Source of the DNA: Clostridia bacterium | GTDB taxonomy: Bacteria > Bacillota > SHA-98 > UBA4971 | Direction: 5' to 3' | NCBI GenBank assembly: GCA_050261175.1 | Contig: JBLNDA010000125.1 | Coordinates: 10,343 to 74,342, forward strand | Length of the DNA: 64,000 bases | Shown here: positions 3,421-47,669 of the stretch, one piece after another | How the letters are laid out: the number at the start of each line of letters is the position of its first letter | How positions within the stretch are numbered: position 1 is the first letter of the stretch | Program-made: the position numbers and the translations under genes | Notes under the pieces: generated by a model | What the model was told of the DNA's origin: nothing | What the model saw: only the letters and a program-made list of their open reading frames with translations | Databases searched by the model: none

Positions 3421-3706
3421 CGCCGGCATCCCCCGCAACCTCGAAGGCCTGACGCGCCCGCTCCCCGGCGCCGGCGCCACCCGCCTCCACCGCGCCCCCA
3501 CTGGGGGTTACGGCCACCACGTCACCGGGACGGAGTTTCCTCCCACGGCGCAGCTCCTGGCGGCCGTTCACGGTGACCCGTCCTTCCTGGACCAACGCCT
3601 TGGCCTGGCCGCCGGTGGGCGCGACGCCGGCCCATTTGAGAAACTGGTCGAGCCTTATCTCCGGGCTCGTGATTGGGACTCTCACGGGCTTGTCGGCGGC
3701 GCTCAT
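3410..3706 (-). CDS. yaaA: S4-domain RNA-binding protein YaaA
   Basis: IRLDQFLKWAGVAPTGGQAKALVQEGRVTVNGRQELRRGRKLRPGDVV is an S4 fold signature. It lies between dnaN and recF as in Bacillus, with an ATGA overlap with the dnaN stop. Confidence 0.8.
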   Translation of the reverse strand: MSAADKPVRVPITSPEIRLDQFLKWAGVAPTGGQAKALVQEGRVTVNGRQELRRGRKLRPGDVVAVTPSGGAVEAGGAGAGERARQAFEVAGDAGDGA

Positions 3707-4899
3707 GAGTTCACCGTCACCGGCATTATGAGGTAGAGGTAGTCCGTGCTTTCGTTTCGAGCTTGTCTCAGCACGACCGGACTCACGGGACCCGTGACTT
3801 CGATGGCAAGCTCGTCGTCGGCCACGGCCCGCAGTGCATCAAGGAGATAACGAGCACGGAGAGCCGTCTCTCCTCTCTCCCCCTCGGTCGCCCCGACCGC
3901 CACTTCCTCGAAGGCCATGCCGACGTCGGGAGCGTTGGCGCTTATGCTGAGGGTATCTGCTCCGTATCCCAGCTTGACCGTGCCGAACTCGTCCTTTCCG
4001 AGGACGGCCACACGCTCGACCGCATCCAGGAGCCTCAGCCTGTCCACGACCATCCGGGTCTTCCAGGCTTTAGGGATCACCCGGTCGTAGTTGGGGAACT
4101 GCCCGTCGATGAGCCGGCTCACGATCGTCGTCTTACGGCATTTGAAAGCCACCTGATTCTGTGAAGCAAAGATCTCGACTTCGCCGCTCTCGTTTTGGAC
4201 TATCCTTCCGACCTCATTCAGCGCCCGCGCGGGGACTATCATTTGTCCCGTACCAGCTTCGCTTGAGGCGGTATTCCCTCCGTCGAGCGTAACCTTGCGG
4301 AGCGCCAGCCTGAACGTGTCAGTGGCGGCCAACCTCGCCTCGTTTCCGCCGAAGGACATGAGAACGCCGGTGAGGAACGGGCGGTTCTCGTCGGTGGCGG
4401 CGGCGAATGCAGTCTGCCTCACGAACTCGGAAAGGTCCTTCCCTTGAACCTTCCACCACACATTTCCTTCCACCTGTGGGAAGAGCGGGAACTCAGCGGC
4501 CTCCATGGAGTTGATACTGTACACCGCCTTCCCGCTCGAAATGGTAGCGACTCGCTTTCCTGGGTCAAACTCGATCCTGACTTCCTTCTCGGGGAGACGC
4601 CTCACTATCTCCCCAAAGTATCGGGCGGGAAGCACCATTGCGGCGTGGCCCGTCGCGCTCACCGGCATGAACGTCTCCACGGACAGCTCGAGGTCGGTTC
4701 CCACCAGGCGAAGGCCTTCAGCTGTGGTCTCGATGAGAATACCCGAGAGGATCGGTAGCGTGGTTCGCGACGACACGGCCCGTTGCACCGTGGCGGCACC
4801 CGTAGCCAAATCGTCCCTCTCACACGAGACTTGAACTGGTGTTTCCACCGGACTCCCCGTTTCCATGCTTGTCTGGCCGAGTGTCTCAAGGCTATCCAT
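3703..4899 (-). CDS. dnaN: DNA polymerase III beta sliding clamp
   Basis: ...TTLPILSGILIETTAEGLRLVGTDLELS...RLIDGQFPNYDRVIP...YLLDAL...MPV. An alternative start is Met12 at 4866. Confidence 0.93.
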   Translation of the reverse strand: MDSLETLGQTSMETGSPVETPVQVSCERDDLATGAATVQRAVSSRTTLPILSGILIETTAEGLRLVGTDLELSVETFMPVSATGHAAMVLPARYFGEIVRRLPEKEVRIEFDPGKRVATISSGKAVYSINSMEAAEFPLFPQVEGNVWWKVQGKDLSEFVRQTAFAAATDENRPFLTGVLMSFGGNEARLAATDTFRLALRKVTLDGGNTASSEAGTGQMIVPARALNEVGRIVQNESGEVEIFASQNQVAFKCRKTTIVSRLIDGQFPNYDRVIPKAWKTRMVVDRLRLLDAVERVAVLGKDEFGTVKLGYGADTLSISANAPDVGMAFEEVAVGATEGERGETALRARYLLDALRAVADDELAIEVTGPVSPVVLRQARNESTDYLYLIMPVTVNS

Positions 4900-5037: not shown

Positions 5038-5270
5038 TTGTCCACAGGGCTGTACTCCGGATCGTCTTTGTTAGTACATGTACAGTTCCTTAGTACTAGT
5101 AGTAGGGGCTGTGGATTTGTGGATAAGCCCGGCGGCGCGTTGAGGCGCGCGGCGTTTCGGTGTGGACAAACCTGTGGATTTCGTCACGGCCTGTCCACAG
5201 TATACACAGGCCGAGAGAATTCGACACGTTAGCCACAGGAAATCCACAGGTTATGAAGGGTCTATCCACA
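5038..5270. other. oriC: oriC part 2 (dnaA-dnaN spacer): DnaA-box array plus a candidate unwinding element
   Basis: DnaA boxes (consensus TTATCCACA / TGTGGATAA): 5038-5046 TTgTCCACA; 5110-5118 TGTGGATtt; 5118-5126 TGTGGATAA (perfect); 5161-5169 TGTGGAcAA; 5173-5181 TGTGGATtt. Further boxes: 5191-5199 cTgTCCACA; 5229-5237 TTAgCCACA; 5240-5248 aaATCCACA; 5262-5270 cTATCCACA. The AT-rich stretch 5070-5105 ends in TAGTAGTAG-GGGC directly abutting the tandem boxes at 5110-5126. Confidence 0.85.
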
Positions 5271-5316: not shown

Positions 5317-6669
5317 TCAAGTCATCTCCTTCAACCTGGCGATGATCGTGCGGATAGTGCCTGCAAGGGCCTCGTCCTCTTCCATGTCCGCGCGTATTTT
5401 CGAGCAAGCGTGGAGGACCGTAGTGTGATCCCTGCCTCCGAAGGCGAAGCCGATTGTGGGAAGGGATTCCTCAGTGAGCTCGCGGCACAGGTACATGGCG
5501 ACCTGCCGGGGATACGAGATGGTCCTCGTTCGCTTCTTCGCCTTCATGTCGTCGGTGGGGATCTGGTAGAACTCCGCGACCGCCTGTTGGATGTGGTAAA
5601 TCGAAACCTGTTTCGGCCTTTCGGACGGGATCATGTCTTTCAGACATTCCGCAGCTGTGGCCACGGTGACGGGGCGGTTGTGTATGGAGCAGTGAGCGGC
5701 GACGCGCGTGAGGGCGCCCTCGAGCTCACGGATGTTTGAGCGAATCTGATTCGCGATGTACGCAAGTACCTCGAGGGGCATGTCAAGCTGCTCGAGCTGA
5801 GCCTTCTTCTTGAGGATGGCTATCCGCGTCTCGAGGTCGGGCGCCTGTATATCGGAAATGAGACCCCATTCGAAGCGTGAGCGGAGCCTATCCTCGAGGG
5901 TTGGGATCTCTTTGGGCGGGCGGTCGCTGGATATCACAATCTGCTTGCCCGCCTCATGCAGAGTGTTGAAAGTATGGAAGAACTCCTCTTGGGTACGCTC
6001 CTTTTGCGCCAGGAACTGCACGTCGTCGATGAGCAGGACGTCCACGTTGCGGTATCGCTCCCGGAATTCCACGGTCTTGTCGTCCCTGATCGCGTTGATG
6101 AGGTCGTTCGTGAATCTCTCACAAGGCGCGTACACCACGCGCGTAGACGGGCTGTGCTGAAGGACGAAGTGCCCTATGGCCTGCATCAAGTGGGTCTTCC
6201 CGAGCCCGACGCCTCCATAGATGAAGAGGGGGTTATAGGCCCTGCCGGGAGCCTCGGCGACGGCGAGGCAGGCCGCGTGGGCGAACCTGTTGCTATTTCC
6301 CACCACGAAAGTGTCAAACGTGTACTTGGGGTTCAATCGGGTCGTGTACAGGTCGTCGCCCATGAGAGACCCGGCGTGGGCGGAGTCGTCCGCTTCCAGG
6401 TCGTCCGTCTTCTCCGACGGGACGGAGCAGACGAATGACACGTCCAGGTCCCGCTCCGTGAGGGCCTTGAGAGTCTGCCGGATGGGCTGCCGGTAGTTGT
6501 CGCTGAGGAACTTCCGGCCGATGTCATGGAGGGTCCGTACTACGAGCGTATTCCCGTCGATGGCGATTCCCTGTGTACCCCGCAGCCATGTCTCGAAACT
6601 GGGCTTCGGTATCTGCCCTTGCATCACCTCGAGAACCTTGGCCCAGAGCGTATCCGCACGTTCAAGCAT
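5317..6669 (-). CDS. dnaA: Chromosomal replication initiator protein DnaA
   Basis: 450 aa: ...NPLFIYGGVGLGKTHLMQAIG (Walker A), LLIDDVQFL, and a C-terminal DNA-binding domain ...YPRQVAMYLCRELTEESLPTIGFAFGGRDHTTVLHA. Confidence 0.97.
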   Translation of the reverse strand: MLERADTLWAKVLEVMQGQIPKPSFETWLRGTQGIAIDGNTLVVRTLHDIGRKFLSDNYRQPIRQTLKALTERDLDVSFVCSVPSEKTDDLEADDSAHAGSLMGDDLYTTRLNPKYTFDTFVVGNSNRFAHAACLAVAEAPGRAYNPLFIYGGVGLGKTHLMQAIGHFVLQHSPSTRVVYAPCERFTNDLINAIRDDKTVEFRERYRNVDVLLIDDVQFLAQKERTQEEFFHTFNTLHEAGKQIVISSDRPPKEIPTLEDRLRSRFEWGLISDIQAPDLETRIAILKKKAQLEQLDMPLEVLAYIANQIRSNIRELEGALTRVAAHCSIHNRPVTVATAAECLKDMIPSERPKQVSIYHIQQAVAEFYQIPTDDMKAKKRTRTISYPRQVAMYLCRELTEESLPTIGFAFGGRDHTTVLHACSKIRADMEEDEALAGTIRTIIARLKEMT

Positions 6670-6724
6670 AAGTCATTGACCCCCTGAAAGAAGGCTCAGC
6701 CTCGCCCGTCCGCTCACCGGCAGG

Positions 6725-7675
6725 TCATCTCGCGAGGCGGGCGAGGTAAGTCATGCCCCGCGAAGTGAGGCGCCGTTTGCCGCTCCCGTCGGCCGGCTCG
6801 ACGAGCCCGTACTCCTCGAGGGAGACGAGATCGCGGTAGGCGGTGCTGAGGCTCATGTCGAGCTCCTTCACGATTGTGGACGGCCCCGCCTCACCCTTTT
6901 CGGCGAGCACACGGAACACCTTTCGCTGTCGCTCCGAAAGTATCTCATCCAGCTTTTCAAACAAGCTCTTTTCCTGATCCGTCTGGGTGAAAGAGACCCC
7001 ATCGTCTCCGGCGCCTTTCCAGGGGCCCGGGAAAACCTCCGGATGGGGCCCAGGGAAAGGAGAGGCAGGAGCCCTCTCCCTGCCGGAGGACTTTTCGGAA
7101 ACCTCTGGAGGCGTTTCGGACGACTTGGAAAGCGAGGAAAGCGTGACCACACACCCGCGTTTCAGATTGTCCTCTATGGAAACCGAGCCGCCGATCGCGC
7201 GCATTGAGTCGCGGACGATCGGAAGACCCGAGCCGACCCCACGGATAATCTTCCGCATCTCGGTGGTGGCCGTAGTGAAACCAGGGAGGAATGCCTTCTC
7301 CTTCTCGATTATCCCAGGGCCCTGGTCTGAGACCCTTATAGTATTGCCGTCGGGCAGGATGCTTATGACCGCGTCTTGAAAGTCAGCGTGGAGGAGGTTC
7401 TCGACGATCTCCTTGATAGCGACGTACGGGAGTCGTCCTCCCTTTTCATGAGCGAAGGAGTACGCCTTCGAGGCAATCTCGTTGAGCAGCTCGGCGCAGT
7501 CCCTGCCCCTGACGTCGACGATTCGCGGCACGGTGCTCAGGGAGTCGTACACAGCTATGCGGACCTCGTGCTCTCCCTGTCTTCCACGCTGGGGCGAGTG
7601 ATCGGCGGATGGAGAGGGATGGACGAGGCGGCCGTGGGAGCCTTTTCGAAAGAGACGTGAAAAGACACCTGCCAT
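6725..7675 (-). CDS. GHKL (HATPase_c-like) ATPase fused to a C-terminal winged-helix (MarR/TrmB-like) domain; function unknown
   Basis: N box EIVENLLHA, G1 DQGPGI and G2 GVGSGLPIV are present. A low-complexity linker is followed by LSERQRKVFRVLAEKGEAGPSTIVKELDMSLSTAYRDLVSLEEYGLVEP...RLTSRG. The start is placed at Met113 of ORF 6725..8011, because the upstream 112 codons are translated DnaA boxes. The gap to dnaA is 55 nt. Confidence 0.7.
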   Translation of the reverse strand: MAGVFSRLFRKGSHGRLVHPSPSADHSPQRGRQGEHEVRIAVYDSLSTVPRIVDVRGRDCAELLNEIASKAYSFAHEKGGRLPYVAIKEIVENLLHADFQDAVISILPDGNTIRVSDQGPGIIEKEKAFLPGFTTATTEMRKIIRGVGSGLPIVRDSMRAIGGSVSIEDNLKRGCVVTLSSLSKSSETPPEVSEKSSGRERAPASPFPGPHPEVFPGPWKGAGDDGVSFTQTDQEKSLFEKLDEILSERQRKVFRVLAEKGEAGPSTIVKELDMSLSTAYRDLVSLEEYGLVEPADGSGKRRLTSRGMTYLARLAR

Positions 7676-7704
7676 GCCGTCTACGGCCCGCCTTTCGGTT
7701 GAAG

Positions 7705-7979
7705 TTTTCCACAGGGTTTTCCACAGCTGTGAAAAACTCTGCGGAGAAGGAACGCGCACAGGAAATCCATAGGTTGTCCACAACTTATCCACAAAAGCTG
7801 TGGATAAGATCGGCTGAGTCCAGAGAGGGGTTTCCACCTTTGAAAGGCCGGCTAGCTGGCCGTCCGCGATATCCACAAGTGATTCCGGAAAGGGTCGAAA
7901 GCCTTGTGGCGTCGTGACCCAAAACATCAACAGGTTACCCACAGAGTTATCCACAGGCTGTGAATAAGTCTGTGGGGAA
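7705..7979. other. oriC: oriC part 1: DnaA-box cluster upstream of the GHKL-wHTH/dnaA unit
   Basis: Boxes: 7705-7713 and 7717-7725 TTtTCCACA; 7728-7736 TGTGaAaAA; 7774-7782 TTgTCCACA; 7785-7793 TTATCCACA (perfect); 7799-7807 TGTGGATAA (perfect). Further boxes: 7869-7877 aTATCCACA; 7935-7943 TTAcCCACA; 7947-7955 TTATCCACA (perfect); 7959-7967 TGTGaATAA; 7971-7979 TGTGGggAA. Confidence 0.85.
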
Positions 7980-8057
7980 CTGGGAACTCTATACTTCTGA
8001 CCAGGCTGCATGGAAAGGCTGGAAAACCTCCGAAATCATATTAGCAGAGCTTTTCCA

Positions 8058-8285
8058 GGGTGGCAAGGGGCGGGGCGGTGAGAGGAGGAGGGTGCGGGCA
8101 GGCGAGGGAAAGCGCGGGGGAGCGTGAGAGAGCCGTGGAAGGAAAGTCGCAGGATAGGGGGAACGCGGCGAAAGGGCGGGGCGGAAGATGAAAGGGGAGC
8201 GGAAAGGATCGAGCGGGGCGGAGTGAGAGGGCGGCATGTGGAGGAATCGGGCGAGCGAGCACGGAGGGGCGGGGAATATGGGGCC
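8058..8285 (+). repeat. Polypurine (G/A-rich) tract with a recurring GGGGCGG(G/A)G motif
   Basis: The plus strand is almost entirely G and A for about 230 nt. GGGGCGGGGCGG-like motifs occur near 8066, 8172, 8211 and 8264. The overlapping ORFs (for example 7989..8339 minus, Pro-rich) are compositional artefacts. Confidence 0.6.
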
Positions 8286-8332
8286 GCCTTGGCGGTAGGC
8301 GTGACTCTCGGCTGTTGGGGTACCGGCCGGCC

Positions 8333-8361
8333 TTGACACGCAGGAAGGCGTTGGCTATAAT
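8333..8361 (+). promoter_or_regulatory. Consensus sigma-A promoter for rpmH-rnpA (TTGACA, 17 nt, TATAAT)
   Basis: TTGACA at 8333-8338, a 17-nt spacer, and TATAAT at 8356-8361. It lies about 60 nt upstream of the rpmH ATG. Confidence 0.75.
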
Positions 8362-8419: not shown

Positions 8420-8554
8420 ATGAAGCGAACTTATCAGCCGAAGGTCAGGCGGCGTAGCAAGGTTCACGGTTTCATGCAGAGAATGGCGACGAGGGGCGGG
8501 CGCCTTGTGCTGAAGAGGAGGCGTGCCAAGGGGAGAAAGCGCCTGTCTGCGTGA
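8420..8554 (+). CDS. rpmH: 50S ribosomal protein L34
   Basis: [44 protein letters not shown] (44 aa). This is an internal start of ORF 8315..8554, with a GAGAGAGG ribosome-binding site (RBS). Confidence 0.97.
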
Positions 8555-47349: not shown

Positions 47350-47637
47350 AAGACGGAGGGAGATGCTCCGCGACCGCGGGCGACCCCGCTGACACAGCGG
47401 GCGCAGAGGCGGCGCGTGAGAGCCGAAGGAGCAAGACGCACGTTTGCCACGCGCGCGTCCAAACTCTCAGGCAAAAGCACCTTCGCTGACGGCACTCTGG
47501 AGAGGCGCCTCCGTTGCTCCCATATGCGTACGTAACTTGTATGGGACGAGCCGATGTACGCCGGAGGTGCCGCCGACGGGGTAACCTACCCGCCCTGGGC
47601 AGTTGGCGGGGGAATCTCTCAGGCGTCAGGACAGAGA
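47350..47637 (+). promoter_or_regulatory. Tandem glycine riboswitch (two aptamers)
   Basis: Aptamer 1: ...GGAGGGAGA...AGCCGAAGGAGCAA...ACTCTCAGGCAAAAGCAC. Aptamer 2: CTCTGGAGAG...GCCGCCGACGGGGTAA...ATCTCTCAGGCGTCAGGACAGAG. It lies directly upstream of gcvT. Confidence 0.85.
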
Positions 47638-47669
47638 AACGGGCAACGCGTTTGCCCGTTTTGCGTTTT
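47638..47669 (+). terminator. Riboswitch expression-platform terminator
   Basis: AACGGGCAA (47638-47646) pairs with TTGCCCGTT (47652-47660), followed by TTGCGTTTT. Confidence 0.7.

What the first reader, a model, noticed from the sequence alone, without database searches (positions are those of the whole stretch)
6725..7980. A GHKL-ATPase/winged-helix fusion gene occupies the slot between the oriC DnaA-box cluster and dnaA
Seen: the DnaA-box cluster (7705-7979; three perfect TTATCCACA boxes plus at least 8 near-matches) is followed within 30 nt by the ATG (7675) of a 317-codon gene, not by dnaA. dnaA itself starts only 55 nt after that gene's stop, on the same strand, with no terminator that I can see. 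The protein has N, G1 and G2 ATP-lid motifs of the histidine-kinase/SpoIIAB/MutL-type GHKL fold (EIVENLLHA, DQGPGI, GVGSGLP). It has no DHp/phospho-acceptor domain, and it ends in a MarR/TrmB-like wHTH. Established knowledge: in Bacillus-type origins the box cluster directly precedes dnaA and autoregulates it. Inference: this gene is probably co-transcribed with dnaA from the DnaA-controlled promoter. It could be an ATP-dependent DNA-binding regulator of initiation or of dnaA expression. I do not know of a described initiation factor with this architecture.
Basis: partly seen in the sequence, partly recalled or inferred. Interest (0 to 1): 0.7.

Follow-up and report, generated by a model that had tools for sequence, protein, structure and literature searches.

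The report
Unstudied ATP-binding gene fused to dnaA operon
Directly in front of dnaA, the master gene for starting chromosome replication, sits a gene for an undescribed protein with an ATP-binding domain and a DNA-binding domain. The same gene pair is found in about 90 genomes and metagenome contigs from several bacterial phyla, including cultured human-gut species, so the protein is a strong candidate for an unrecognised regulator of replication start.

Summary
Window 6725-7675 (-) encodes a 316-aa protein with a histidine-kinase-type GHKL ATP-binding domain (Pfam HATPase_c, E 5e-11), a disordered linker and a C-terminal winged helix (wHTH). It lies 29 nt after a 12-box DnaA-box cluster and 55 nt before dnaA, on the same strand. 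No convincing terminator or promoter lies between the two genes.

In all 89 informative loci the homologue sits 10-150 nt upstream of dnaA on the same strand. These loci come from Bacillota, Actinomycetota, Armatimonadota and other lineages, and include isolates of Arabiibacter massiliensis and Rubneribacter badeniensis. The pair stays together even where dnaN and rpmH have been rearranged around it.

The family is well delimited: about 380 clusters at 50% identity, against a generic kinase background. Its ATP-site residues are invariant. It has no curated family model, no close solved structure and no plasmid or phage copies. Six full-text literature searches found no description of it.

Best reading: it is the first gene of the dnaA operon and encodes a nucleotide-dependent DNA-binding regulator acting on dnaA expression and/or oriC. 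The function is inferred, not shown. Kinase, origin-tether and ordinary transcription-factor readings remain open.

The parts
6725..7675 (-). GHKL-wHTH gene (316 aa plus stop), first gene of the putative dnaA operon
   Evidence: ORF and translation. Pfam HATPase_c plus wHTH. Start codon supported by conserved homologue N-termini.
7640..7675 (-). N-terminal short motif MAGVFSRLFRKG (residues 1-12): cationic amphipathic peptide
   Evidence: Conserved as M-x2-3-(L/F)-F-S-R-L-F-(R/G)-K in the Bacillota clade. Hydrophobic moment 0.85 and net charge +3. Followed by a variable, low-confidence linker, residues 10-32. Other subfamilies carry different N-terminal motifs.
7133..7570 (-). GHKL (Bergerat-fold) ATP-binding domain, residues 36-181
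   Evidence: AF2 domain model: pLDDT 83.6, pTM 0.82. Foldseek: DIP2311 (3lmm) TM 0.70-0.72 and histidine-kinase CA domains. Invariant E89, E92, N93, H96, D117-x-G-x-G, G146-x-G-x-G-L-P.
6989..7132 (-). Disordered, length-variable linker (residues 182-229)
   Evidence: pLDDT below 50. Linker length differs by more than 100 residues among homologues. No extra Pfam domain in the longest members.
6728..6988 (-). C-terminal winged helix-turn-helix (residues 230-316)
   Evidence: Pfam TrmB, HTH_20, HTH_IclR and HVO_A0261_N hits at residues 246-315. pLDDT about 90. Invariant S275, S277, T278, R281 in the recognition helix and G299, K300, R301 in the wing.
7705..7979 (.). Upstream DnaA-box cluster: 3 perfect, 6 one-mismatch and 3 two-mismatch boxes, in the leader of the gene
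   Evidence: The same position is box-rich in 68 related loci (6.0 boxes per kb, against 0.3-0.45 in coding sequence).
8038..8066 (-). Promoter-like site TTGCCA-17-(TGc)TAATAT, upstream of the box cluster
   Evidence: Consensus scan. The -35 TTG and -10 TAATAT are invariant or nearly so in 10 related loci (alignment A2, columns 65-98).
6670..6724 (-). 55-nt gap between the gene and dnaA, carrying the dnaA ribosome-binding site (AGGGGG)
   Evidence: Sequence. No promoter-like or terminator-like site. Hairpin not significant or conserved. TTCAGGGGGTA conserved in relatives.
5317..6669 (-). dnaA (450 aa)
   Evidence: ORF. 96% identical to the DnaA of L001, and DnaA homologues were found downstream of the GHKL gene in all informative loci.
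5038..5270 (.). Second DnaA-box cluster in the dnaA-dnaN gap. It includes a box-box-GC-(TAC TAC TAG TAC TAA) unwinding-type module at about 5060-5126.
   Evidence: Related loci have 6.3 boxes per kb in this gap. The comparison with the B. subtilis basal unwinding system is from my own knowledge.
3703..4899 (-). dnaN
   Evidence: ORF. Homologues downstream of dnaA in related loci.
8420..8554 (+). rpmH (ribosomal protein L34), divergent neighbour, with a perfect sigma-70-like promoter at 8333-8361
   Evidence: ORF translation [12 protein letters not shown].... Promoter scan 12/12.

Best explanation
The gene is the promoter-proximal cistron of a two-gene (or longer) dnaA operon. A conserved promoter at about 8066-8038 probably drives it. 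The transcript would have to cross a roughly 355-nt leader that carries 12 DnaA boxes, so DnaA occupancy would control the GHKL gene and dnaA together.

Its product has three parts: a short N-terminal peptide motif; a catalytically intact-looking histidine-kinase-type GHKL ATP-binding domain; and a wHTH joined to it by a long flexible linker.

The most likely mode of action is a nucleotide-dependent switch. ATP binding or turnover in the GHKL domain would change the self-association or conformation of the protein, and thereby how the wHTH engages DNA in the origin region (the dnaA promoter/leader and/or the two box clusters flanking dnaA). This would tune dnaA expression and/or origin firing.

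Shown: domain architecture, an intact ATP site, gene position, universal linkage to dnaA, and box clusters upstream but never between the two genes. Inferred: co-transcription, that the DNA target lies at the origin, and any effect on initiation.
For: Architecture: HATPase_c plus wHTH. AF2 models. Foldseek hits to histidine-kinase CA domains and to the GHKL-wHTH part of 3lmm.

Intact ATP site: E89, E92, N93, H96, D117xGxG and G146xGxGLP are invariant across 25 and 36 diverse sequences.

Operon position: 55-nt gap, same strand, no promoter or terminator hit, and a conserved dnaA ribosome-binding site.

Linkage: 77 of 77 informative genome loci plus 12 of 12 informative loci of divergent members have the gene 10-150 nt upstream of dnaA. 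In L084/L085 dnaN is divergent and rpmH lies downstream of dnaA, yet the pair is kept. The linkage is therefore to dnaA itself, not to the neighbourhood.

DnaA boxes: 6.0 per kb upstream of the gene, 0 in the gene-dnaA gaps, 6.3 per kb in dnaA-dnaN gaps.

Conserved promoter upstream of the boxes.

Chromosomal core gene: no plasmid or phage copies.

A discrete family: 380 clusters at E<=1e-30 and 544 at 1e-10, before the generic kinase background of 8920 at 1e-3. The architecture is constant even in the longest members.
Against: There are no expression, binding or phenotype data.

K-mer enrichment in 68 upstream regions recovered only DnaA-box variants and no separate operator for the wHTH.

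The wHTH recognition helix is not conserved across all subfamilies, so there is no single universal DNA target.

Histidine-kinase-type CA domains, unlike GyrB, MutL or MORC domains, are not known to dimerise on ATP binding (own knowledge), and no transducer domain is present.

An internal promoter for dnaA inside the 3' end of the gene cannot be excluded by a consensus scan.
Confidence: 0.55

Rival explanations
1. A protein kinase or partner-switching factor of the SpoIIAB/RsbW/PDK type. The GHKL domain would phosphorylate or sequester a protein (DnaA itself or another initiation factor) on Ser/Thr. The wHTH would only bring it to the origin.
For: The GHKL domain is stand-alone, about 150 aa, and has no DHp domain. 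An invariant Glu lies four residues before the Mg-binding Asn (E89/N93). That position holds the catalytic base in SpoIIAB and in PDK/BCK Ser kinases, but is usually Asn in histidine kinases (own knowledge). There are weak profile hits to BCKDK and to spIIAB. Some JGI records name members 'anti-sigma regulatory factor (Ser/Thr protein kinase)'. Expression coupled with DnaA would suit a regulator that acts on DnaA.
Against: There is no hit to HATPase_c_2. The TIGR01925 score is 15 against a cut-off of 135. No STAS or sigma-factor gene lies nearby in any locus. The same Glu is also the catalytic base of the GHKL ATPases, so it does not discriminate. No substrate has been identified.
Confidence: 0.15
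2. An origin-positioning or tethering factor that follows Noc/MinD/RicO logic. The wHTH would bind origin-proximal DNA. The N-terminal amphipathic peptide would bind the membrane. ATP-dependent self-association would set avidity, anchoring or organising the origin region rather than regulating dnaA.
For: The window protein starts with MAGVFSRLFRKG, which has hydrophobic moment 0.85 and charge +3 and is separated from the core by a disordered linker. The motif is conserved throughout the Bacillota clade, and some members read MSWFKRLFGG. A 10-residue N-terminal amphipathic helix is Noc's membrane anchor and is gated by CTP (bioRxiv 10.1101/2021.02.11.430593). RicO bridges origin DNA and the membrane through an amphipathic helix (bioRxiv 10.64898/2026.03.06.710092).
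Against: The motif is not universal. About a quarter of family N-termini are acidic, for example MAHAFYPFVEN in an Actinomycetota clade, and Coriobacteriia members have a different motif. Mean amphipathicity across the family is only modestly above shuffled controls (0.54 against 0.46). A segregation factor has no obvious need to sit in the dnaA operon. AF2 does not predict a helix there.
Confidence: 0.12
3. An ordinary one-component transcription factor whose regulon lies elsewhere. Its place in front of dnaA would only give it origin-proximal gene dosage and growth-rate-coupled, DnaA-controlled expression.
For: The wHTH is of the TrmB/IclR/ArsR/MarR type typical of metabolic regulators. No operator distinct from the DnaA boxes was found in the upstream regions. 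Recognition helices diverge between subfamilies.
Against: Linkage was strict in 89 of 89 informative loci across phyla, and was kept through a local rearrangement. This is far beyond what dosage advantages give other regulators. No copy was found anywhere else, and there are no plasmid or phage copies. No neighbouring metabolic genes co-vary with it.
Confidence: 0.1
4. Not a real or functional gene: a chance ORF, a decayed insertion or a mobile-element remnant between the boxes and dnaA.
For: None beyond the odd location. The public annotation of the identical protein has a wrong, over-long start.
Against: There are 1826 and 4091 significant homologues in two searches. ATP-site and wHTH residues are invariant. 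The AF2 domain models are confident. The gene is present in isolates. It is absent from plasmids and phages.
Confidence: 0.01

Closest known systems
Catalytic (CA) domains of two-component histidine kinases (e.g. WalK/YycG 3sl2, CpxA 4biz, HK853)
   Same: Bergerat ATP-binding fold with an N box (Asn93), G1 (DQGPGI), an F-box-like FLPGF and G2 (GVGSGLP). These are the best sequence hits in Pfam and PDB and the top Foldseek E-values.
   Different: No DHp/HisKA domain or phospho-acceptor His, no sensor or transmembrane part, and no cognate response regulator. Glu instead of Asn four residues before the Mg-binding Asn. Fused to a wHTH. The structural superposition is only moderate (TM 0.40-0.51).
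DIP2311 of Corynebacterium diphtheriae (PDB 3lmm), a structural-genomics protein of unknown function. From memory, it belongs to the AlbA_2 / HATPase_c_4 / wHTH 'Schlafen-like predicted regulators'.
   Same: Best structural match to the GHKL domain (TM 0.70-0.72, rmsd 3.4-3.9 A over about 162 columns). It is also the only PDB entry whose match spans both the GHKL part and the following wHTH (298-317 aligned columns).
   Different: 13-17% identity. No Pfam HATPase_c_4 or AlbA_2 hit in the window protein. DIP2311 is 477-556 residues long in the chains matched, with a large extra N-terminal part. No dnaA linkage is known for it, and its function is also unknown.
SpoIIAB / RsbW anti-sigma factor Ser kinases, and mitochondrial PDK/BCK kinases
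   Same: GHKL domain used without a DHp domain. Catalytic-type Glu four residues before the Asn (own knowledge). Weak profile hits.
   Different: No STAS or sigma partner genes, a score far below the family cut-offs, and a DNA-binding domain attached.
Regulators that bind oriC or the dnaA promoter (Spo0A, MtrA, CtrA, HP1021, ArcA) and DnaA regulators (YabA, SirA, Soj, Hda, DiaA/HobA)
   Same: Expected site of action, and the logic of an HTH/wHTH protein whose activity is set by a nucleotide- or phosphoryl-dependent switch at the origin (own knowledge; reviews PMC5295017 and PMC8203912 were listed).
   Different: No sequence or domain relationship to any of them. None of them is a GHKL protein, and as far as I know none is encoded as the first cistron of the dnaA operon across phyla.
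Noc (CTP-gated N-terminal amphipathic helix plus HTH) and RicO (origin-membrane anchor)
   Same: The combination of a nucleotide-binding module, a DNA-binding domain and, in the window's clade, a terminal cationic amphipathic peptide.
   Different: Unrelated folds (ParB/CTPase against GHKL). The amphipathic motif is clade-specific here. Membrane binding is untested.
DciA / Rv0004 (DUF721): a precedent for a replication factor found through dnaA-locus synteny
   Same: A conserved gene of unknown function in the dnaA-dnaN-recF cluster that turned out to be an essential replication protein (PMC5720831, abstract seen). A DUF721-sized ORF follows recF in the Actinomycetota loci here.
   Different: A different protein, in a different position (after recF rather than before dnaA), with a different function (helicase operation).

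Membership tests
Two-component sensor histidine kinase | DHp/HisKA dimerisation domain with a phospho-acceptor histidine, N-terminal to the CA domain | tested here: not met
   No HisKA or HisKA_3 hit at E<=1. Only about 50 residues (two strands and one helix) precede the N-box helix in the AF2 models.
Two-component sensor histidine kinase | CA domain with N, G1, F and G2 boxes | tested here: met
   HATPase_c E 5.1e-11, 43.4 bits against a cut-off of 26.4. Motifs are invariant in the family.
Two-component sensor histidine kinase | Cognate response-regulator gene or receiver domain | tested here: not met
   No receiver domain in the protein. None among the called neighbours in loci L081-L092.
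SpoIIAB/RsbW-type anti-sigma Ser kinase (HATPase_c_2, TIGR01925) | Match to the family model above its cut-off | tested here: not met
   TIGR01925 scores 15.4 bits against a cut-off of 135. There is no PF13581 hit.
SpoIIAB/RsbW-type anti-sigma Ser kinase (HATPase_c_2, TIGR01925) | Adjacent STAS anti-anti-sigma and sigma-factor genes | tested here: not met
   Neighbours are rpmH/rnpA/yidC/jag and dnaA/dnaN/recF in all loci.
SpoIIAB/RsbW-type anti-sigma Ser kinase (HATPase_c_2, TIGR01925) | Ser/Thr phosphotransfer to a partner protein | not testable with these tools
   Needs a biochemical assay.
GHKL ATPases of the GyrB/MutL/Hsp90/MORC type | Motif I E-x3-N, motif II D-x-G-x-G, motif III G-x-x-G-x-G | tested here: met
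   E89-x3-N93, D117-Q-G-P-G and G146-V-G-S-G are invariant. A weak MutL hit covers motifs I-II.
GHKL ATPases of the GyrB/MutL/Hsp90/MORC type | Transducer (S5 domain 2-like) domain that supplies a Lys to the gamma-phosphate | tested here: not met
   The GHKL domain ends at about residue 181 and is followed by a disordered linker. No further Pfam domain was found, even in the longest members.
GHKL ATPases of the GyrB/MutL/Hsp90/MORC type | ATP-driven N-terminal dimerisation | not testable with these tools
   Only monomer prediction was available.
AlbA_2 / HATPase_c_4 / wHTH proteins (DIP2311-like) | N-terminal AlbA_2 domain and a sequence match to HATPase_c_4 | tested here: not met
   No such Pfam hits at E<=1. 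The similarity is structural only (TM 0.70-0.72, 13-17% identity).
MarR/TrmB/IclR/ArsR wHTH transcription factors | Winged helix-turn-helix DNA-binding domain | tested here: met
   TrmB 29.3 bits (cut-off 25.6), HTH_20 28.7 (27) and HTH_IclR 27.7 (22) at residues 246-298. AF2 pLDDT is about 90.
MarR/TrmB/IclR/ArsR wHTH transcription factors | The family-specific effector or dimerisation domain (e.g. IclR C-terminal, TrmB C-terminal) | tested here: not met
   The wHTH is the last domain, and the only other domain is HATPase_c.
Known DnaA/oriC regulators (YabA, SirA, Soj/ParA, Hda, DiaA, HobA, SeqA, DnaD/DnaB) | Sequence membership in the respective family | tested here: not met
   None appears among the Pfam or NCBIfam hits at E<=1.
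The new family itself (dnaA-linked GHKL-wHTH) | HATPase_c plus a C-terminal wHTH, encoded no more than about 150 nt upstream of dnaA on the same strand | tested here: met
   Window. 89 of 89 informative related loci.

The most novel reading that the evidence does not exclude
This is a previously unrecognised, phylum-spanning component of bacterial replication-initiation control. A GHKL ATP-switch protein would be made in fixed proportion to DnaA from the same DnaA-controlled transcript, and would act directly at the origin. For example, ATP-dependent self-association could bridge or occlude the two DnaA-box clusters that flank dnaA. In the Bacillota clade it could tether the origin to the membrane through its N-terminal amphipathic peptide. 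Either way, origin firing would be coupled to the cell's nucleotide or energy state. It would be the first GHKL-type initiation regulator, and the first regulator hard-wired into the dnaA operon in Coriobacteriia, many uncultured Bacillota and Armatimonadota, lineages in which I know of no described DnaA regulator.
Probability: 0.3. Interest if true: 0.85.

Novelty: new variant of a known kind. Interest (0 to 1): 0.72.

Why it matters
Control of DnaA and oriC is understood in detail only in E. coli, B. subtilis and Caulobacter, and their regulators (Hda, SeqA, DiaA, YabA, SirA, Soj) are not conserved across bacteria. How most phyla time initiation is an open question.

A gene that never leaves dnaA's side across at least three phyla is one of the strongest genomic signals of a shared function. 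The DciA/Rv0004 precedent (PMC5720831) shows that such dnaA-locus orphans can turn out to be core replication factors.

Because the family occurs in cultured human-gut Eggerthellaceae (Arabiibacter, Rubneribacter, Gordonibacter), the hypothesis can be tested directly by depletion, marker-frequency analysis, ChIP-seq and ATPase or kinase assays. Its ATP pocket is of a type that is druggable in other proteins (GyrB, Hsp90; own knowledge).

It also corrects an annotation. Public records start the protein 112 codons too early, reading through the DnaA boxes.

Tried and rejected
(1) Curated families. NCBIfam gave only sub-threshold kinase and Csa3-HTH hits. Pfam gave nothing beyond the generic HATPase_c and wHTH models. 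I rejected 'member of a characterised family'.

(2) PDB by sequence. No relative was closer than generic histidine-kinase CA domains at E about 1e-6.

(3) Literature. Six full-text searches found no description. RicO is a different protein.

(4) A separate operator for the wHTH. K-mer enrichment over 68 upstream regions returned only DnaA-box variants (TTTTCCACA, TTTTCAACA, TTTTTCACA) and promoter hexamers. Short palindromes in the leader alignment (e.g. TTCCGGAA) are too short and too clade-specific to call.

(5) A terminator or attenuator between the gene and dnaA. The hairpin across the stop codon has z = -0.93 and is not conserved.

(6) The N-terminal motif as a beta-clamp-binding motif (QL[SD]LF; consensus from memory). 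Only the final L-F matches and there is no Gln, so I rejected it as unsupported.

(7) The N-terminal motif as a universal membrane anchor. I rejected it as universal because about a quarter of the N-termini are acidic. I keep it as a clade-specific possibility.

(8) Mobile-element origin. There are no tblastn hits in 72,556 plasmids or 50,697 phages.

(9) A structured RNA in the leader. There is no Rfam hit at the locus.

(10) Domain fusions that might give 'Rosetta-stone' clues to function. The ten longest members carry no additional domain.

Not done: homodimer or DnaA-complex structure prediction (the tool is monomer-only); a second genome-collection scan (cap reached), so the lower-scoring 207 of the 287 confirmed genome hits were not inspected.
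Full report
WHAT IS THERE. On the - strand of the window the gene order is: a promoter-like site (8066-8038); a DnaA-box cluster (7979-7705); a 316-codon gene (7675-6725); dnaA (6669-5317); a second DnaA-box cluster (5270-5038); dnaN (4899-3703); a small S4-like ORF; and recF. On the + strand, rpmH, rnpA, yidC, jag and mnmE run divergently from 8420 onward. This is the classical Bacillus-type origin region with one extra gene between the upstream box cluster and dnaA.

There are three perfect TTATCCACA boxes, six with one mismatch and three with two mismatches in 7705-7979. At up to one mismatch the whole window has 15 boxes against 3.7 expected, and no shuffle out of 100 reaches 15. Fourteen of the 15 lie in the two clusters flanking dnaA. 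The last box ends 29 nt before the ATG at 7675. The stop codon is 55 nt before the dnaA ATG.

The mechanical ORF, and the public annotation of the identical protein (P0001, 428 aa), start at ATG 8011. The N-termini of the homologues align at M-x3-F-S-R-L-F, and the extra 112 codons are the box cluster itself. ATG 7675 is therefore the true start.

THE PROTEIN. Pfam finds HATPase_c at residues 85-179 (E 5e-11, above the gathering score). It finds several wHTH families (TrmB, HTH_20, IclR, HVO_A0261_N) at residues 246-315, and no DHp/HisKA domain. NCBIfam has no model for it; all its hits are far below their cut-offs.

The full-length AlphaFold2 model has four parts:
- an unstructured N-terminus (residues 1-32);
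- a compact alpha/beta GHKL domain (36-181), whose ATP lid (120-148) has low confidence;
- a disordered linker (182-229);
- a confident wHTH (230-315).

A domain-only model built from 36 diverse sequences reaches pLDDT 83.6 and pTM 0.82. By Foldseek E-value, histidine-kinase CA domains rank first. By superposition the best match is the structural-genomics protein DIP2311 (PDB 3lmm; TM 0.70-0.72, rmsd 3.4-3.9 A), against TM 0.40-0.51 for the kinases. DIP2311 is also the only PDB entry whose match spans both the GHKL domain and the following wHTH. Its function is unknown, and the similarity is not detectable by sequence (13-17% identity, no HATPase_c_4 hit).

The nucleotide-site residues are invariant in alignments of 25 and 36 diverse members: E89, E92, N93, H96, D117-x-G-x-G and G146-x-G-x-G-L-P. 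So are an N-terminal strand motif (A41, Y43, D44, P50) and the FLPGFTTA lid segment. The Glu four residues before the Mg-binding Asn is the position of the catalytic base in GHKL ATPases and in the SpoIIAB and PDK Ser kinases, whereas histidine kinases usually have Asn there (own knowledge). The site therefore looks catalytically competent, but this does not say whether the protein is an ATPase or a kinase. There is no transducer domain and no other domain, even in the longest family members; only the linkers grow.

THE FAMILY AND ITS GENOMIC CONTEXT. The protein has 1826 significant homologues in the 5.8-billion-protein collection. A profile search of 1.84 billion cluster representatives gives 380 clusters at E<=1e-30 and 544 at 1e-10, before the generic kinase background appears (8920 at 1e-3). 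This is a discrete family.

A scan of one genome per GTDB species confirmed 287 loci and returned the best 80. I located DnaA, DnaN, RecF, L34, RnpA, YidC, Jag and MnmE in them by tblastn. In all 77 loci where the contig continues beyond the gene, dnaA follows directly on the same strand. L34 lies upstream and divergent wherever the contig allows. The gaps to dnaA are 18-150 nt and contain no DnaA box at all. In contrast, the rpmH-to-gene spacer has 6.0 boxes per kb and the dnaA-dnaN spacer 6.3 per kb, against 0.3-0.45 per kb in coding sequence.

The record titles place these loci in Bacillota, Actinomycetota (including Coriobacteriia and Humimicrobiia), Armatimonadota and several candidate lineages.

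Because that set is biased towards good matches, I also looked up eight further members. Five were divergent ones from the bottom of the representative list, with other wHTH recognition helices and other N-terminal motifs. All eight sit directly upstream of dnaA, with gaps of 10-135 nt.

Two observations are especially telling. First, in L084/L085 (one from a Hadza gut metagenome) the neighbourhood is rearranged: dnaN is divergent upstream and rpmH-rnpA-yidD lie downstream of dnaA, yet the GHKL-dnaA pair is intact. The linkage is therefore to dnaA itself. Second, the family is present with the same synteny in isolates, namely the 3.38-Mb genome record of Arabiibacter massiliensis (LT827021.1) and Rubneribacter badeniensis. 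It is also named in Gordonibacter records. There is no copy in 72,556 plasmids or 50,697 phage genomes.

EXPRESSION SIGNALS. The only sigma-70-like site on the - strand between rpmH and dnaA is TTGCCA-17-TAATAT, with an upstream TG, at 8066-8038. Its -35 TTG and -10 TAATAT are invariant or nearly invariant in ten related loci that are otherwise only 75% identical in this spacer. A transcript from there would carry a leader of about 355 nt containing all twelve boxes. This arrangement would let DnaA control the GHKL gene and dnaA together.

The 55-nt gap before dnaA carries a conserved ribosome-binding site (TTCAGGGGGTA) and no terminator-like site. A hairpin that spans the stop codon is no better than shuffled sequence (z = -0.93) and is not conserved. 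Co-transcription is therefore well supported by sequence, but it is still an inference.

The dnaA-dnaN spacer contains TTATCCACA-a-ATCCACA-GCCCC followed by TAC TAC TAG TAC TAA. From my knowledge of the B. subtilis basal unwinding system, this is the box/DnaA-trio layout of the unwinding site. The cluster in front of the GHKL gene would then be the promoter-side half of a bipartite origin.

HOW IT MOST LIKELY WORKS. The parts that are shown are: an intact ATP site; a flexible tether to a wHTH; a position as first cistron of the dnaA operon behind DnaA boxes; and universal linkage to dnaA. I take this to be a nucleotide-dependent DNA-binding regulator that acts in the origin region on dnaA expression and/or origin firing (confidence 0.55).

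Which nucleotide-dependent step is used cannot be decided here. It could be dimerisation, a conformational change or phosphotransfer.

The rivals are as follows.
- A SpoIIAB/PDK-like protein kinase or partner switch acting on DnaA or another initiation protein (0.15). The catalytic-type Glu and the lack of a DHp domain favour it. The lack of family membership and of partner genes counts against it.
- A Noc/RicO-like origin tether (0.12). The cationic amphipathic N-terminus of the window's clade favours it (MAGVFSRLFRKG, hydrophobic moment 0.85), as do the Noc and RicO precedents. It is weakened because other subfamilies carry acidic or different N-terminal motifs.
- An ordinary transcription factor that merely profits from the location (0.10).
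- 'Not a real gene', which the conservation data exclude.

I could not find an operator distinct from the DnaA boxes. K-mer enrichment gave only box variants. A recurrent module, TTTT(T/C)CACA-n2-TGTGGAAAA-n3-TGTGGA(A/T)AAC, lies upstream of the gene in many phyla. It could be a DnaA site, the wHTH site or both.

COMPARISON WITH WHAT IS KNOWN. By fold and motifs the ATP-binding domain belongs to the GHKL superfamily and is closest in sequence to histidine-kinase CA domains. The protein nevertheless fails the defining tests for three families:
- a histidine kinase (no DHp/His, no response regulator);
- a SpoIIAB-type kinase (far below the model cut-off, no STAS or sigma partners);
- a GyrB/MutL/MORC-type ATPase (no transducer domain).

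It is not related to any known DnaA or oriC regulator. Functionally, the nearest analogues are the HTH/wHTH regulators that bind origins under the control of a GHKL kinase (Spo0A, MtrA, CtrA, HP1021; own knowledge). Here a kinase-like module and the DNA-binding output are in one polypeptide encoded with dnaA.

I therefore rate it as a new variant of a known kind, namely nucleotide- or phospho-switch regulators at the origin. It would move to 'categorically new' if it proves to act directly on initiation. Six full-text searches found no description of the family or of the synteny. That search does not cover most subscription journals.

VERDICT. The function remains inferred. The finding is interesting mainly because of the invariant, phylum-spanning coupling to dnaA and because cultured gut Eggerthellaceae make it testable.

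Noticed in passing
window 8050-8300: A tract of about 250 nt that is purine-rich on the + strand and pyrimidine-rich on the - strand (GC skew +0.5 to +0.6, AT skew +0.35 to +0.7). It lies between the divergent rpmH promoter-like site (8333-8361, 12/12 consensus) and the GHKL-dnaA promoter-like site (8066-8038). It is partly conserved in L001-L003. Its function is unknown; it could be an H-DNA-prone spacer or an insulator.
   Followed up: partly
window 5060-5126 (- strand): TTATCCACA-a-ATCCACA-GCCCC-TAC TAC TAG TAC TAA in the dnaA-dnaN gap. This is the layout of a Bacillus-type basal unwinding system (two boxes, a GC clamp, DnaA-trio-like repeats), so DNA opening probably happens downstream of dnaA rather than in the cluster the finding refers to.
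   Followed up: partly
window 7676-8011 (- strand); proteins P0001 and P0005: Public annotations of the identical protein (428 aa, 'MAG: ATP-binding protein [Clostridia bacterium]') and of a 77%-identical one start 112 codons too early and translate the DnaA-box cluster. The conserved N-terminus shows that the start is ATG 7675.
   Followed up: yes
window 7705-7736, and the same position in L001-L014, L026, L058, L064, L068, L076: A recurrent three-box module, TTTT(T/C)CACA-n2-TGTGGAAAA-n3-TGTGGA(A/T)AAC, lies upstream of the GHKL gene across phyla. TTTTCCACA occurs in 45 of 68 upstream regions, more often than the perfect box (42 of 68). It could be a DnaA site, the wHTH operator or both.
   Followed up: partly
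window 6670-6700 (- strand); L001-L003 junctions: The dnaA ribosome-binding site AGGGGGT can pair with GCCTTCT just upstream (GCCUUCU-UUC-AGGGGGU). The pairing is conserved in the closest relatives, and it is a possible RBS-sequestering hairpin or translational-coupling element between the two genes.
   Followed up: no
family-wide: proteins P0195-P0262 and others: N-terminal short motifs are subfamily-specific: MxxLFSRLFRK (Bacillota), MQDFFLRLIAK (Armatimonadota-like short forms), MAHAFYPFVEN (an Actinomycetota clade), and FDYxxV next to strand 1 (Coriobacteriia). Each is separated from the core by a disordered stretch. This pattern is typical of partner-binding linear motifs.
   Followed up: partly
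L084 and L085 (Hadza gut and another metagenome): An unusual origin-region layout in a Coriobacteriia-like lineage: dnaN is divergent upstream of the GHKL-dnaA pair, and rpmH-rnpA-yidD lie downstream of dnaA on the same strand.
   Followed up: no
window 47487-47644 (+): Glycine riboswitch aptamer (Rfam RF00504, 45.6 bits, above the gathering score). This is the only Rfam hit in the window.
   Followed up: no
window 7671-7687 (- strand): A small hairpin, GCCGT-AGA-CGGC, immediately before and overlapping the start codon of the GHKL gene. The scan flagged it as terminator-like. The nearest Shine-Dalgarno-like GAAAGG is 15 nt upstream of the ATG, an unusually long spacing, and is invariant in ten relatives.
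   Followed up: no
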